A stretch of 64,000 nucleotides of DNA from Candidatus Kaiserbacteria bacterium. GTDB lineage: Bacteria; Patescibacteriota; Minisyncoccia; Phycocordibacterales; Phycocordibacteraceae. A model generated the notes under the pieces. The model was not told the DNA's origin and did no database searches. It saw only the letters and a program-made list of their open reading frames with translations. Shown here piece by piece: positions 40,729-42,328 of this stretch (within the stretch, counting starts at the first letter, position 1; the number at the start of each line of letters is the position of its first letter). A program made the translations under genes and the position numbers. The stretch covers positions 3,184-67,183 of the forward strand of contig JACRFL010000013.1 in the NCBI GenBank assembly GCA_016217905.1, in the 5' to 3' direction.

Positions 40729-41418
40729 TTACCAACCCATCTTCTCGAGTGCGTTCTGAGCGGAAGATTGTTCGGCTTCTTGCTTAGAGTTCCCTTCTCC
40801 GCGGGCGATTTCGGAGGAGCCAATGAAGACGCCGACGGTGAAGCGCTTGTCGTGATCGGGCCCGACTTCAGAGAGAGTCTCGTAGGCAGGCGTGATGCCC
40901 CGCTTCTCCTGTGCGCTTTCCTGGAACCTGCTCTTCGCGTCTTGGTAGGAGCGCTTGGCGATAACCTCGTCGATTTTAATGTACACATTCCGCGCGATGA
41001 ATTGTTCGGCCGGCGCGTAGCCCTGATCCAAATAGATTGCGCCGATGACTGCTTCGAACGCATCCGCGAGGATCACATCGCGCGCGCGGCCGGTATCTTT
41101 CGCCTCACCCTTCGAGAGCAGCAAAAAATCATTGATGCCGAGCGCCTGCGCGCGCTCGGCCAAGGAGACGGTGTTTACGAGCGCGGCGCGATACGCCGTG
41201 AGCTCCCCTTCGGGCTTCTCGGGGAATTTTTTAAAAAGAAAATCAGTAGTGGCGAGCTCAAGCACCGCATCACCGAGAAACTCGAGCCGCTCGTTGTGAG
41301 ACCCCGTGTATTCGCGGTGCTCGTTGAGGTAGGAGCGGTGCGTCAGGGCCTCGATAAGAAGGTCGAGGCTGTTGAAGGAGAGACCGAGTCGTGCTGCGAA
41401 AACGTTGAAATCAGGCAT
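40729..41418 (-). CDS. rnc: Ribonuclease III
   Basis: RNase III signature ERLEFLGDAVLE and a C-terminal dsRBD. Start taken at MPDFNV. Confidence 0.85.
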   Translation of the reverse strand: MPDFNVFAARLGLSFNSLDLLIEALTHRSYLNEHREYTGSHNERLEFLGDAVLELATTDFLFKKFPEKPEGELTAYRAALVNTVSLAERAQALGINDFLLLSKGEAKDTGRARDVILADAFEAVIGAIYLDQGYAPAEQFIARNVYIKIDEVIAKRSYQDAKSRFQESAQEKRGITPAYETLSEVGPDHDKRFTVGVFIGSSEIARGEGNSKQEAEQSSAQNALEKMGW

Positions 41419-42328
41419 GAAGTTGCGTCTCACGTGCGGCGCCGGCGTGGTCGAGGAGTTTCTGGACGGCGACAGTGACGATGGGGAGCATATCATCGTA
41501 GAAATTGAGATCAATGATGTCCTGGAGCCGGAACCATTTCGCGTCGTCGAGCCCGCCGCTCTTCTTCAGCTGAAGCGGCTCGAAGTTGCTCGACGCGAGG
41601 AAGAACCAGACGTGCTTCCTGACCTTCCCTTTCTCCGGGTGCGAAGCGACGTATTCGTTCTCGCCGACCTGTGCGCCCACGGAAGCGGTGAGACCGAGTT
41701 CTTCCTTGATGACGCGCGCGACGCCCGTCTGCGGCGTCGCGTCCTCTTCGATGTGGCCCTTCGAGAGCGTCCAGTGGCCGAAGACGTCGTGCACGAGCGC
41801 GAGGTAATACTGTCCCTCGTGCTTGGCATACACGATGGCGCCGCCCATTTTCTCAAGCGGCAATTCTTCGCGCTTTACTTTCTTTCCTCCGTGCTCGTTC
41901 TTGCCGGGTTCGCCGAGCTCCTTGTAGACCGCGCCGAGGACTCCGTTAACGAACCGGCCGCTCGAGTCGCCGCCGAAGGTCTTCGCGAGCTCGATGGCTT
42001 CGTTGATAGCGACTTTTGCGGGTACCTGTGTGCGATCGGCGAAGAGGAGTTCGTGGAGCCCGAGGCGGAGGATGTTGCGGTCAATGGGTGCGATGCGCTC
42101 CAAAGGCCACTCGGGAGCGGCTTTTTCGATGACGAGATCGATGTCGCTTTTCTTGGTGAGGACGCCCGAGAGAAGGCCATTCATGAACGATTGGTCGACA
42201 TCGCCGCTGCCGAACTCCTCGACATTGCGCGCGAGGATCGCGAACGTGTCCTTCTCGGACGCATGCATGGTGTCCCACTCAAAGAGTGTTTGAAGGACAA
42301 TGGAACGCGCGAGGTGTCGATTCGCCAT
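41411..42328 (-). CDS. nusB: NusB antitermination factor fused to a C-terminal Nudix hydrolase domain
   Basis: The N-terminal about 140 aa match NusB closely ([30 protein letters not shown]). The C-terminal about 160 aa carry a Nudix box [23 protein letters not shown]. Start taken at MANRHLARS. Confidence 0.7.
   Translation of the reverse strand: [305 protein letters not shown]

What the first reader, a model, noticed from the sequence alone, without database searches (positions are those of the whole stretch)
41411..42328. NusB fused to a Nudix hydrolase domain
The N-terminal half aligns convincingly with NusB ([30 protein letters not shown]). The C-terminal half has a recognisable Nudix box and fold signature ([30 protein letters not shown]). 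An antitermination factor covalently linked to a nucleoside-diphosphate-X hydrolase suggests coupling of rRNA antitermination with turnover of a nucleotide signal or cap-like 5' modification, for example NAD-RNA decapping as in NudC. I am not aware of this fusion being characterised.
Basis: partly seen in the sequence, partly recalled or inferred. Interest (0 to 1): 0.5.

Follow-up and report, generated by a model that had tools for sequence, protein, structure and literature searches.

The report
NusB fused to degenerate Nudix domain
A candidate-phyla (Kaiserbacteria) bacterium makes its rRNA antitermination factor NusB as one protein with an Ap4A-hydrolase-like Nudix domain that has lost two catalytic glutamates here. 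The fusion is real, widespread in its relatives and unstudied, and it more likely binds a nucleotide than cuts one.

Summary
One uninterrupted 305-aa ORF (minus strand, 41411-42328) passes the curated thresholds for NusB (Pfam 115.6 bits; TIGR01951 123 bits) and NUDIX (44.8 bits). It is GenBank MBI5405929.1, annotated only as "NusB" (Candidatus Kaiserbacteria). The fusion recurs in about 50 of the 80 species-representative Parcubacteria-group genomes returned, always in an rpmF-nusB::nudix-rnc(-smc) cluster. Relatives with plain nusB have it in the same slot, so this is the positional orthologue of nusB.

The interpretation needs revising. The Nudix half resembles Ap4A/Ap6A hydrolases and the NrtR sensor domain, not NudC. 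Its box reads G-x5-A-x7-R-V-I-x-E-E-x-G-L, so two conserved Glu are missing. One of them is the metal ligand whose E53A change inactivates RppH. This variant is fixed across 121 close-clade sequences under purifying selection. The nearest sister lineages keep a canonical box, and substrate-pocket residues (W186, K190, Y226, W265, Y277) are near-invariant family-wide. NrtR regulators show the same pattern.

The most likely reading is a tethered domain with little or no hydrolase activity that binds a nucleotide or polyphosphate next to NusB's BoxA-binding helix. Residual hydrolase activity and a scaffold role are not excluded. I rate it a new variant of known kinds, of moderate interest.

The parts
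41411..42328 (-). nusB::nudix coding sequence (305 aa plus stop); GenBank protein MBI5405929.1
   Evidence: ORF and translation; both Pfam domains above cut-off; identical NCBI protein
41915..42328 (-). NusB domain, aa 1-138 (seven helices). It includes F126 (equivalent to Ec/Aa F122, which stacks on BoxA U8), D83 (equivalent to E81) and F16 (equivalent to Y18 at the NusE interface).
   Evidence: Pfam and TIGR01951; PDB NusB hits at 8e-18; AF2 helices 2-138, Foldseek 3r2c/3r2d TM 0.89, rmsd 1.8 A; residue roles from PMC3177189; F126 invariant and D83 >=90% conserved in alignment A1
41858..41914 (-). Linker, aa 139-157: semi-conserved 'GEPGK' followed by a Lys/Glu-rich flexible segment
   Evidence: pLDDT drops to about 50 at residues 140-153; consensus G-x-P-x-K in A1; stand-alone CPR NusB proteins end here
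41429..41857 (-). Nudix-fold domain, aa 158-300, of the Ap(n)A-hydrolase / NrtR-like type
   Evidence: Pfam NUDIX 44.8 bits; phmmer hits to Ndx1, CT771 and C. elegans Ap4A hydrolase; AF2 alpha/beta fold at pLDDT >90; Foldseek 3gz8, 3i7u, 1ktg, 1vc8, 9cxx
41690..41758 (-). Degenerate Nudix box, aa 191-213: [23 protein letters not shown] = G-x5-A197-x7-R205-V206-I-x-E209-E210-x-G212-L
   Evidence: Alignment to Ndx1 and C. elegans Ap4A hydrolase; family alignments. Position 197 is never Glu and position 206 is always V or I in 121 close-clade sequences.
40729..41418 (-). rnc (RNase III, 229 aa). Its ATG overlaps the end of nusB::nudix by 8 nt.
   Evidence: Pfam Ribonucleas_3_3, Ribonuclease_3 and dsrm; the same overlap or adjacency in relatives
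42409..42759 (-). rpmF (ribosomal protein L32, extended to 116 aa), immediately upstream
   Evidence: Pfam Ribosomal_L32p; conserved upstream neighbour
42379..42407 (-). Perfect 12-bp stem with a 5-nt loop between the rpmF stop and the nusB start (no T-run)
   Evidence: the repeat finder I2; RNA fold -28.3 kcal/mol for 87 nt, z = -2.95
38478..40688 (-). Short SMC-like ATPase (736 aa), the last gene of the conserved rpmF-nusB-rnc-smc cluster
   Evidence: Pfam SMC_N 234.6 bits; conserved in relatives

Best explanation
This is the organism's ordinary nusB, the NusE/S10 partner that binds BoxA RNA in rRNA antitermination. It sits in the conserved ribosome-biogenesis cluster rpmF-nusB-rnc-smc. In an ancestor of a large Parcubacteria-group subgroup (Kaiserbacteria and relatives), NusB gained a C-terminal Ap(n)A-hydrolase-type Nudix domain on a flexible linker of about 20 residues. 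The linker leaves helix alpha7, which is the BoxA-binding helix. The ancestral domain probably was an active hydrolase. In the window's lineage two signature glutamates have been replaced (E to A197, and the metal-ligand Glu of 'RE' to V206), while the nucleotide and phosphate pocket residues stay fixed and the domain stays under strong purifying selection. The domain therefore most likely has little or no hydrolase activity here. It would act as a binding module for an adenine-nucleotide or polyphosphate-type ligand (ApnA, ATP or ADP-ribose, or a 5'-triphosphate or Np4-capped RNA end), as the Nudix sensor domain of NrtR does. It would hold that ligand next to the NusB/NusE-BoxA complex, so that rRNA antitermination or processing is modulated or anchored by it. 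Shown here: the fusion, NusB orthology, the fold, the degenerate box, the conservation pattern and the selection. Inferred: loss of activity, ligand binding, and any effect on antitermination.
For: The fusion is real and NusB is bona fide. Plain CPR nusB occupies the identical rpmF-nusB-rnc slot, so the fused gene is its positional orthologue. No second nusB or Nudix gene lies in the 64 kb window. The box lacks two Glu. Position 206 equals RppH E53, since the RppH motif spans residues 38-60, and E53A is inactive. The 'RE' Glu ligates metals M2 and M3 in DHNTPase, Ap4A hydrolase and RppH. The variant is stable in 121 close-clade sequences, and the Nudix half is 89% identical against 86% for the NusB half. 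In the Nudix half, pN is 0.06-0.12 and dN/dS about 0.05-0.12, no higher than in the NusB half. Family-wide, canonical boxes appear in 8 of 53 deep representatives, scattered over the tree, and in 19 of 50 species-level sequences including the nearest sister group. W186, K190 and W265 are invariant, Y277 is present in 49/49 and Y226 in 48/50. K190, Y277, H185 and K233/K235 align with the phosphate-binding and adenine-stacking residues of Ap4A hydrolases (alignment; roles from PMC4734340). W186 aligns with the motif Trp that contacts a second sulfate there, and Y226 is only a candidate for the loop-5 Tyr (that Tyr aligned to H230). The top Foldseek hit is the NrtR Nudix domain bound to ADP-ribose. 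[quoted passage not shown]
Against: No biochemical data exist. E209, E210, R205, G191, G212 and nearby acidic residues (D261, D262, E225) are retained, so weak or altered hydrolysis is possible. About 40% of the species-level relatives keep a fully canonical box. Catalysis may therefore be the family's core function, with this clade an exception. The ligand is unknown. Inter-domain geometry could not be assessed because no PAE was returned. Whether the genome has another nusB outside the window could not be tested.
Confidence: 0.5

Rival explanations
1. The domain is an active tethered hydrolase. The Nudix domain would still cleave a dinucleoside polyphosphate, an NTP-like alarmone, or a 5'-triphosphate or Np4A/NAD-type cap on the nascent rRNA leader. 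NusB would deliver it to the BoxA site, ahead of RNase III processing.
For: The Pfam NUDIX domain is above cut-off. The EE pair, R205, G191, G212 and the nearby acidic residues D261/D262 are retained. 19 of 50 species-level relatives, including the nearest sister clade, keep a complete GX5EX7REUXEEXGU box. The closest solved relatives are true Ap4A/Ap6A/ApnA hydrolases. The linker starts next to the BoxA-binding helix. The gene is translationally coupled to rnc.
Against: In this clade the 'RE' Glu is V or I and the first Glu is absent in all 121 sequences. The equivalent E53A change abolishes RppH activity, and that Glu ligates two catalytic metals. Most deep family members have even more degraded boxes yet keep the domain. 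There is no NudC motif or zinc site, and the RppH and MutT equivalog models score far below cut-off. The coupling to rnc predates the fusion, because it is also present with plain nusB.
Confidence: 0.27
2. The domain is a structural, SuhB-like accessory module. It would act through protein-protein or protein-RNA contacts, for example with RNA 3' of BoxA, NusA, S10 or RNAP, to stabilise NusB/NusE in the rRNA antitermination complex. No small-molecule ligand would be needed. It might compensate for factors missing from reduced CPR genomes.
For: [quoted passage not shown] The Nudix domain is tethered to the end of alpha7, next to the 3' part of bound BoxA. Catalytic residues are dispensable across the family while the domain is kept under purifying selection.
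Against: The best-conserved residues include ones that align with substrate-pocket contacts of Ap4A hydrolases (K190, Y277; W186 contacts a second sulfate there), not an obviously new surface. Nothing is known about SuhB presence or absence in these genomes. The linker is predicted to be flexible, with no evidence of a fixed interface.
Confidence: 0.15
3. The fusion is incidental. Genome compaction joined two adjacent, functionally independent genes, and the fusion persists only as a way to co-express them.
For: CPR genomes are compact with overlapping genes; nusB::nudix and rnc overlap by 8 nt. One relative has an in-frame stop that would separate the halves (L088).
Against: No unfused genome examined has a related Nudix gene within 3 kb of nusB. 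All three 'stand-alone Nudix' hits checked are truncated or broken fusions. The fusion persists across lineages down to about 32-36% identity, with a semi-conserved linker motif.
Confidence: 0.08

Closest known systems
NusB (E. coli, Aquifex aeolicus; TIGR01951/PF01029), the NusE/S10 partner that binds BoxA RNA
   Same: The N-terminal 138 aa pass the equivalog cut-off and have the seven-helix fold (TM 0.89 to 3r2c). The BoxA-stacking Phe (F126, equivalent to F122) is invariant, and the equivalents of E81 (D83) and Y18 (F16) are conserved. The gene sits in the same slot as plain nusB of related CPR bacteria.
   Different: It carries an extra domain of about 165 aa after helix alpha7. None of the solved NusB chains matched (139-156 aa) has one.
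NrtR family (Nudix-related transcriptional regulators; 3gz8)
   Same: A Nudix domain is fused to a nucleic-acid-directed transcription factor module. In most members the Nudix signature is degraded while the fold and pocket are kept, and a minority keep an intact signature. NrtR is the top Foldseek hit.
   Different: In NrtR the Nudix domain is N-terminal, of the ADP-ribose-pyrophosphatase type, and fused to a winged-helix DNA-binding domain. Here it is C-terminal, of the Ap(n)A-hydrolase type ('WTLSKGH' motif), and fused to an RNA-binding antitermination factor. No effector is known.
Asymmetric Ap4A / Ap6A hydrolases (C. elegans 1ktg, Aquifex 3i7u, T. thermophilus Ndx1 1vc8, Chlamydia CT771, M. 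tuberculosis Rv2985)
   Same: These are the best sequence and fold matches (E about 1e-5; TM 0.72-0.86). They share the 'hW-x-x-PKGH-x-E' motif, the 'KGK' loop and the C-terminal stacking Tyr.
   Different: Those enzymes have a complete Nudix box. The window protein has Ala and Val at two of the Glu positions, and it is fused to NusB.
RsmB/Sun 16S rRNA m5C967 methyltransferase
   Same: The architecture is an N-terminal NusB-like RNA-binding domain followed by an enzyme-fold domain acting in ribosome biogenesis. The RsmB models hit the NusB half weakly.
   Different: The RsmB N-domain is only NusB-like and its partner is a SAM methyltransferase. Here the N-domain is true NusB and the partner is a Nudix fold. 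All RsmB models score far below cut-off.
SuhB in the E. coli rRNA antitermination complex
   Same: It is an enzyme-fold (inositol monophosphatase) accessory protein that stabilises NusB/E on rrn leader RNA. This is a functional analogy for a non-metabolic role of an enzyme fold beside NusB.
   Different: The fold is unrelated, SuhB is a separate polypeptide, and it acts through NusA AR2. There is no evidence that the Nudix domain does this.
Dcp2 (helical N-terminal regulatory domain plus Nudix decapping domain)
   Same: The domain order is the same, helical N-domain then Nudix. Dcp2 appears in the Foldseek list over about 250-270 columns.
   Different: The rmsd is 11-16 A, so only the Nudix part truly superposes. 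The Dcp2 N-domain is not NusB-like, and Dcp2 has an intact catalytic box.

Membership tests
NusB (TIGR01951 / PF01029) | Sequence match above the curated equivalog and gathering cut-offs | tested here: met
   TIGR01951 scores 123.2 bits against 88.35, and PF01029 scores 115.6 against 23.1
NusB (TIGR01951 / PF01029) | All-helical NusB fold | tested here: met
   AF2 gives seven helices at pLDDT >90. Foldseek matches 3r2c/3r2d with TM 0.89 and rmsd 1.8 A.
NusB (TIGR01951 / PF01029) | BoxA- and NusE-contact residues (Ec/Aa F122, E81, Y18) | tested here: met
   F126 is invariant, D83 is >=90% conserved and F16 is aromatic. The roles of these residues come from PMC3177189.
NusB (TIGR01951 / PF01029) | It is the genome's nusB orthologue (single copy, conserved context) | tested here: inconclusive
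   It occupies the same rpmF-nusB-rnc slot as plain nusB in 28 related genomes. There is no second copy in the 64 kb window. The rest of the genome could not be searched.
NusB (TIGR01951 / PF01029) | Heterodimer with S10 and binding to a BoxA element in the rRNA leader | not testable with these tools
   No rRNA operon or Rfam hit lies in the window. Biochemistry is required.
Nudix hydrolase superfamily (PF00293) | Nudix alpha/beta/alpha fold and an HMM match above the gathering score | tested here: met
   PF00293 scores 44.8 bits against 21.1. More than 400 Foldseek PDB matches at E<=1e-3 were found, and the listed ones are dominated by Nudix structures.
Nudix hydrolase superfamily (PF00293) | Complete catalytic signature GX5EX7REUXEEXGU | tested here: not met
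   The box reads G191-x5-A197-x7-R205-V206-I-K-E209-E210-L-G212-L, so two of the four Glu are missing. This is fixed in 121 close relatives.
Nudix hydrolase superfamily (PF00293) | Mg2+/Mn2+-dependent hydrolysis of a nucleoside-diphosphate-X substrate | not testable with these tools
   An enzyme assay is needed. The precedents (RppH E53A, NrtR) predict loss of activity.
NudC (NADH pyrophosphatase / NAD-RNA decapping) | SQPWPFPxS motif downstream of the box, a zinc-binding Cys motif, and a NudC model match | tested here: not met
   There is no SQPWPFP motif and the protein has zero Cys. No NudC family appears among the NCBIfam hits at E<=1. The identity of the defining motif is from my own knowledge of the family.
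RppH (RNA pyrophosphohydrolase) | RppH equivalog model match and an intact catalytic E53 | tested here: not met
   NF001936 scores 15.5 bits against 118, and NF001937 scores 12.5 against 139. The position equivalent to E53 is Val.
Asymmetric Ap4A/ApnA hydrolase (NUDT2/Ndx1 type) | 'HW-x-x-PKGH' phosphate-binding motif, loop-5 Tyr and Lys, and a C-terminal stacking Tyr/Phe | tested here: met
   H185-W186-T-L-S-K190-G-H192, K233/K235 and Y277 align to H31/W32/K36/H38, K79/K81 and Y121 of the C. elegans enzyme. The roles come from PMC4734340. The loop-5 Tyr alignment is uncertain (Y226 or H230).
Asymmetric Ap4A/ApnA hydrolase (NUDT2/Ndx1 type) | Intact metal-binding Glu triad of the box | tested here: not met
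   The equivalent of C. elegans E52 is V206, and the equivalent of E43 is A197.
NrtR-type Nudix sensor domain | Degenerate signature with a retained fold and pocket, fused to a transcription-factor module | tested here: met
   compared with the NrtR description. This is resemblance in kind only.
NrtR-type Nudix sensor domain | C-terminal winged-helix DNA-binding domain and ADP-ribose effector binding | tested here: not met
   The partner domain is NusB, it is N-terminal, and no wHTH is present. Effector binding was not tested.

The most novel reading that the evidence does not exclude
In a large group of Parcubacteria, the rRNA antitermination complex has a built-in nucleotide-responsive module. 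The NusB-tethered Nudix domain would sense a dinucleoside polyphosphate, an adenine-nucleotide alarmone, or the chemical state of the nascent rRNA 5' end, and in canonical-box lineages it would also destroy that ligand. This would tune NusB/NusE-BoxA assembly, and so rRNA synthesis and RNase III processing, to the cell's nucleotide status. Such direct metabolite control of a Nus factor has not been described.
Probability: 0.25. Interest if true: 0.7.

Novelty: new variant of a known kind. Interest (0 to 1): 0.5.

Why it matters
In the solved structures and papers consulted here, NusB appears as a single-domain adaptor with no described ligand input. A conserved fusion to a Nudix domain would point to a link between rRNA transcription or antitermination and nucleotide or polyphosphate signalling, or RNA 5'-end chemistry. 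It occurs in a large, uncultivated bacterial radiation with reduced genomes. The fusion is widespread and under purifying selection, and its catalytic motif has been lost repeatedly while the pocket is kept. The family also offers a natural series of canonical and degenerate variants. That series could be used to study how a Nudix hydrolase turns into a binding module, as happened in NrtR. On the practical side, hundreds of database entries named simply 'NusB' hide this second domain.

Tried and rejected
1. A frameshift or missed stop between the halves is rejected. The ORF is continuous, an identical protein is in NCBI, and the architecture recurs.

2. A NudC-like NAD decapping enzyme is rejected. 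The protein has no NudC motif, no Cys and no model hit.

3. Membership of RppH or MutT is rejected, because the equivalog scores are far below cut-off.

4. Stand-alone orthologues of the Nudix domain, or a split nusB + nudix ancestral arrangement, were not found.
- P0205 is cut at a contig end.
- P0262/L088 is a fusion with one in-frame TAA.
- P0207/L089 is broken by a scaffold gap.
- No related Nudix gene lies within 3 kb of unfused nusB in 28 genomes.

5. A second nusB or Nudix copy in the window was not found by tblastn.

6. An anti-phage defence association is rejected. The only PADLOC hit is a 27-bit generic Nudix match.

7. Rfam found no RNA elements, BoxA or rRNA in the window.

8. A sigma-70-like promoter specific to nusB was not found on the minus strand.

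Pocket and inter-domain geometry could therefore not be analysed directly.

10. My first impression from the deep 50%-identity representatives was that 'most of the family is degenerate' (8/53 canonical). The species-level set tempered this (19/50 canonical).

11. The CT771 paper could not be retrieved.
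Full report
**1. Observation**

The minus strand of the window carries an uninterrupted ORF at 41411-42328. It encodes 305 aa starting MANRHLARS, and homologues start at the same Met. Pfam assigns NusB to aa 7-136 (E=2.6e-33, 115.6 bits, cut-off 23.1). It assigns NUDIX to aa 176-274 (E=1.6e-11, 44.8 bits, cut-off 21.1). The NCBIfam equivalog TIGR01951 (nusB) scores 123.2 bits against a cut-off of 88.35.

The identical protein is GenBank MBI5405929.1. It is annotated only as 'transcription antitermination factor NusB' from a Candidatus Kaiserbacteria bacterium (Patescibacteria group, Parcubacteria group).

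**2. The fusion is recurrent**

- All 120 best 90%-identity clusters have both Pfam domains.
- An exhaustive HMMER scan of 1.84 billion 50%-identity representatives gave 144 hits at E<=1e-30. These include at least 52 full-length proteins of about 280-320 aa, with identity down to about 32%.
- A scan of species-representative genomes returned 80 loci. In about 50 of them NusB and Nudix lie in one ORF. The sources name these Kaiserbacteria, Paceibacterota, Zambryskibacteria, Nomurabacteria, Ryanbacteria, Niyogibacteria, Komeilibacteria and others.
- 28 loci have a plain nusB of about 140-150 aa, named Moranbacteria, Azambacteria, Yanofskybacteria, Nealsonbacteria, Staskawiczbacteria and Wildermuthbacteria.
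- The three apparent 'Nudix-only' relatives I examined are artefacts or broken fusions. One is cut at a contig end, one has a single in-frame TAA, and one has a scaffold gap.

**3. Context and orthology**

In the window the gene order on the minus strand is rpmF (L32), nusB::nudix, rnc (RNase III), then a short smc. RNase HII and dnaE lie upstream. The rnc ATG overlaps the end of the fusion by 8 nt.

The same rpmF-nusB(::nudix)-rnc(-smc) order is found in relatives at 86%, 52% and 37% identity and across most of the 80 loci. Plain nusB in unfused CPR lineages lies in the same slot, also overlapping rnc. The fused gene is therefore the positional orthologue of ordinary nusB, and the link to rnc predates the fusion.

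No second nusB or Nudix copy lies in the 64 kb window. The rest of the genome could not be searched.

**4. The NusB half looks fully functional**

- It matches E. coli, Thermotoga, Aquifex and Mycobacterium NusB structures at E of 1e-12 to 1e-18.
- The AlphaFold2 model has mean pLDDT 91.6 and pTM 0.71, and shows seven helices over residues 2-138.
- The model superposes on Aquifex NusB from the NusB-NusE-BoxA complex with TM 0.89 and rmsd 1.8 A.
- F122 of Ec/Aa NusB stacks on BoxA U8 and is required in vivo (PMC3177189). It aligns with F126, which is invariant in the 68-sequence family alignment.
- E81 aligns with D83 (>=90% conserved), and the NusE-interface residue Y18 aligns with F16.

**5. 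The Nudix half: fold present, catalytic signature incomplete**

By sequence, the closest solved proteins are:
- T. thermophilus Ndx1, an Ap6A hydrolase;
- Chlamydia CT771;
- C. elegans Ap4A hydrolase;
- mycobacterial MutT1 and Rv2985.

By fold, the best matches are:
- the NrtR Nudix domain bound to ADP-ribose (3gz8);
- Aquifex Ap4A hydrolase (TM 0.86);
- Ndx1 (TM 0.83);
- C. elegans Ap4A hydrolase, CT771 and Rv2985.

The box reads G191-HIEED-A197-TPQTGVA-R205-V206-I-K-E209-E210-L-G212-L. Against GX5EX7REUXEEXGU, the first Glu is Ala and the Glu of 'RE' is Val.

The second position is motif position 16. It equals E53 of RppH, whose motif spans residues 38-60, and the E53A mutant is catalytically inactive (PMC6061791). 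In DHNTPase, Ap4A hydrolase and RppH this Glu directly ligates two of the catalytic metals (PMC5526541).

The protein has no NudC motif and no Cys. The RppH and MutT equivalog models score far below cut-off.

**6. Evolutionary pattern**

- In 121 close-clade sequences (82-100% identity), position 197 is never Glu and varies freely. Position 206 is always V or I. [14 protein letters not shown] and D196 are essentially fixed.
- The Nudix half is as conserved as the NusB half or more so: 89% against 86% identity. Its pN is 0.06-0.12 against 0.12-0.15, and its dN/dS is about 0.05-0.12. dS is near saturation, so the ratios are rough. The domain is under selection, not decaying.
- Among 53 deep representatives, only 8 have a fully canonical box, and these are scattered over a neighbour-joining tree.
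- Among 50 species-level sequences, 19 are fully canonical. These include the nearest sister group at 69-75% identity. 24 keep the 'RE' Glu, and the rest have K, V, A, I or S there.
- W186, K190 and W265 are invariant, Y277 is present in 49/49 and Y226 in 48/50.
- In the alignment to C. elegans Ap4A hydrolase, H185, W186, K190, H192, K233, K235 and Y277 fall on H31, W32, K36, H38, K79, K81 and Y121. According to PMC4734340, the His and Lys of the motif and a loop-5 Tyr and Lys bind phosphate P1. A C-terminal Tyr/Phe and the loop-5 Tyr stack the adenine. The motif Trp (Pf Trp44, equivalent to W186) contacts a second sulfate ion.
- Acidic residues near the active site (D261, D262, E225) are retained whatever the box state.

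**7. Interpretation**

The pattern has three parts. A minority of members keep intact signatures. The catalytic residues have been lost repeatedly and almost at random. The fold and pocket are retained under selection.

This matches what is described for NrtR regulators. Most of those lack hydrolase activity but bind ADP-ribose as an effector, and a few intact members remain active (PMC2330246).

I therefore favour the following reading (confidence about 0.5). In this genome the Nudix domain is a nucleotide- or polyphosphate-binding module with little or no hydrolase activity. It is tethered by a flexible linker (pLDDT about 50 at residues 140-153) to the end of helix alpha7. That helix is the BoxA-binding helix of NusB. 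Loss of activity, ligand binding and any effect on antitermination are inferences.

The rivals are:
- An active tethered hydrolase or decapping enzyme (0.27). This is favoured by the retained EE pair and by the canonical sister lineages.
- A SuhB-like structural accessory (0.15). SuhB is an enzyme-fold protein needed for stable NusB/E integration and binds the boxA-boxC linker region (PMC6614801).
- An incidental fusion (0.08).

**8. Comparison with what is known, and novelty**

The parts are known kinds: NusB, an Ap(n)A-hydrolase-type Nudix fold, and a Nudix pseudo-enzyme acting as a sensor. The combination is not described in the searchable literature and is hidden behind a plain 'NusB' annotation.

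The architectural parallels are:
- RsmB (NusB-like domain plus enzyme);
- NrtR (Nudix sensor plus transcription-factor module);
- Dcp2 (helical domain plus Nudix), by domain order only.

I class it as a new variant of known kinds, with interest 0.5. It is a solid, widespread and testable fusion.

**9. Limits**

- There is no biochemistry.
- Residue mapping rests on sequence alignment, and the loop-5 Tyr assignment is uncertain.
- Whole-genome content (second nusB, suhB, rppH, apaH) could not be examined.
- The neighbour-joining tree is crude.

Noticed in passing
window 42409-42759 (-): Ribosomal protein L32 is 116 aa, but the Pfam L32p domain covers only aa 5-52. The rest is a long His/Glu/Ala-rich and Gly-rich C-terminal tail. 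L32 length varies from 64 to 117 aa among relatives.
   Followed up: partly
window 38478-40688 (-): The SMC-like ATPase has only 736 aa, and the SMC_N model spans residues 1-721. This implies a very short coiled coil and no obvious hinge. Relatives have 751-852 aa.
   Followed up: partly
window 42379-42407: A perfect 12-bp inverted repeat with a 5-nt loop lies directly after the rpmF stop and about 50 nt before the nusB start, with no T-run. It could be an RNA processing or attenuation hairpin, or a protein-binding palindrome. The RNA fold z-score is -2.95.
   Followed up: partly
window 42798-42822 (-): A terminator-like hairpin with a T-run (AAACGTCGCCCTATAGGCGACGTTT followed by TGATTTTTTA) lies just upstream of rpmF. 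This suggests that rpmF-nusB-rnc-smc starts a new transcription unit.
   Followed up: no
window 36499-38448 (+): An RNase II/R-type exonuclease (RNB, CSD2 and S1 domains) is convergent with smc. RNase HII, RNase III and RNase R-like genes therefore all lie within 8 kb of nusB.
   Followed up: no
window 1-64000: No Rfam family reaches its gathering score anywhere in the 64 kb, not even a tRNA.
   Followed up: no
L088 542-1459; L052; L054: Some relatives carry interrupted fusions. L088 has one in-frame TAA replacing the Tyr of 'VYKELGEP', which would give separate NusB and Nudix ORFs. L052 and L054 have the NusB part split over two ORFs. These could be sequencing errors, pseudogenes or natural splits.
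   Followed up: partly
L009, L010, L011, L021, L025, L040 (Nudix box region): The sister clade of the window's lineage has a 5-residue insertion inside the Nudix box loop ('KIGDxPxxxxE...'), yet it keeps all canonical Glu.
   Followed up: no
protein P0236 (142 aa): This Nudix protein looks chimeric. Its N-terminal half is MutT-like with a canonical box (WVAPGGRIEFGETPERCIVREIKEELGL). Its C-terminal half closely resembles the fusion family's C-terminal half. It could be an assembly chimera or a recombinant.
   Followed up: no
window 41372-42349 (+): A 325-aa stop-free ORF runs antisense across the whole nusB::nudix gene. This is typical of mirror ORFs in 58% GC DNA, and it was not considered a gene.
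   Followed up: no
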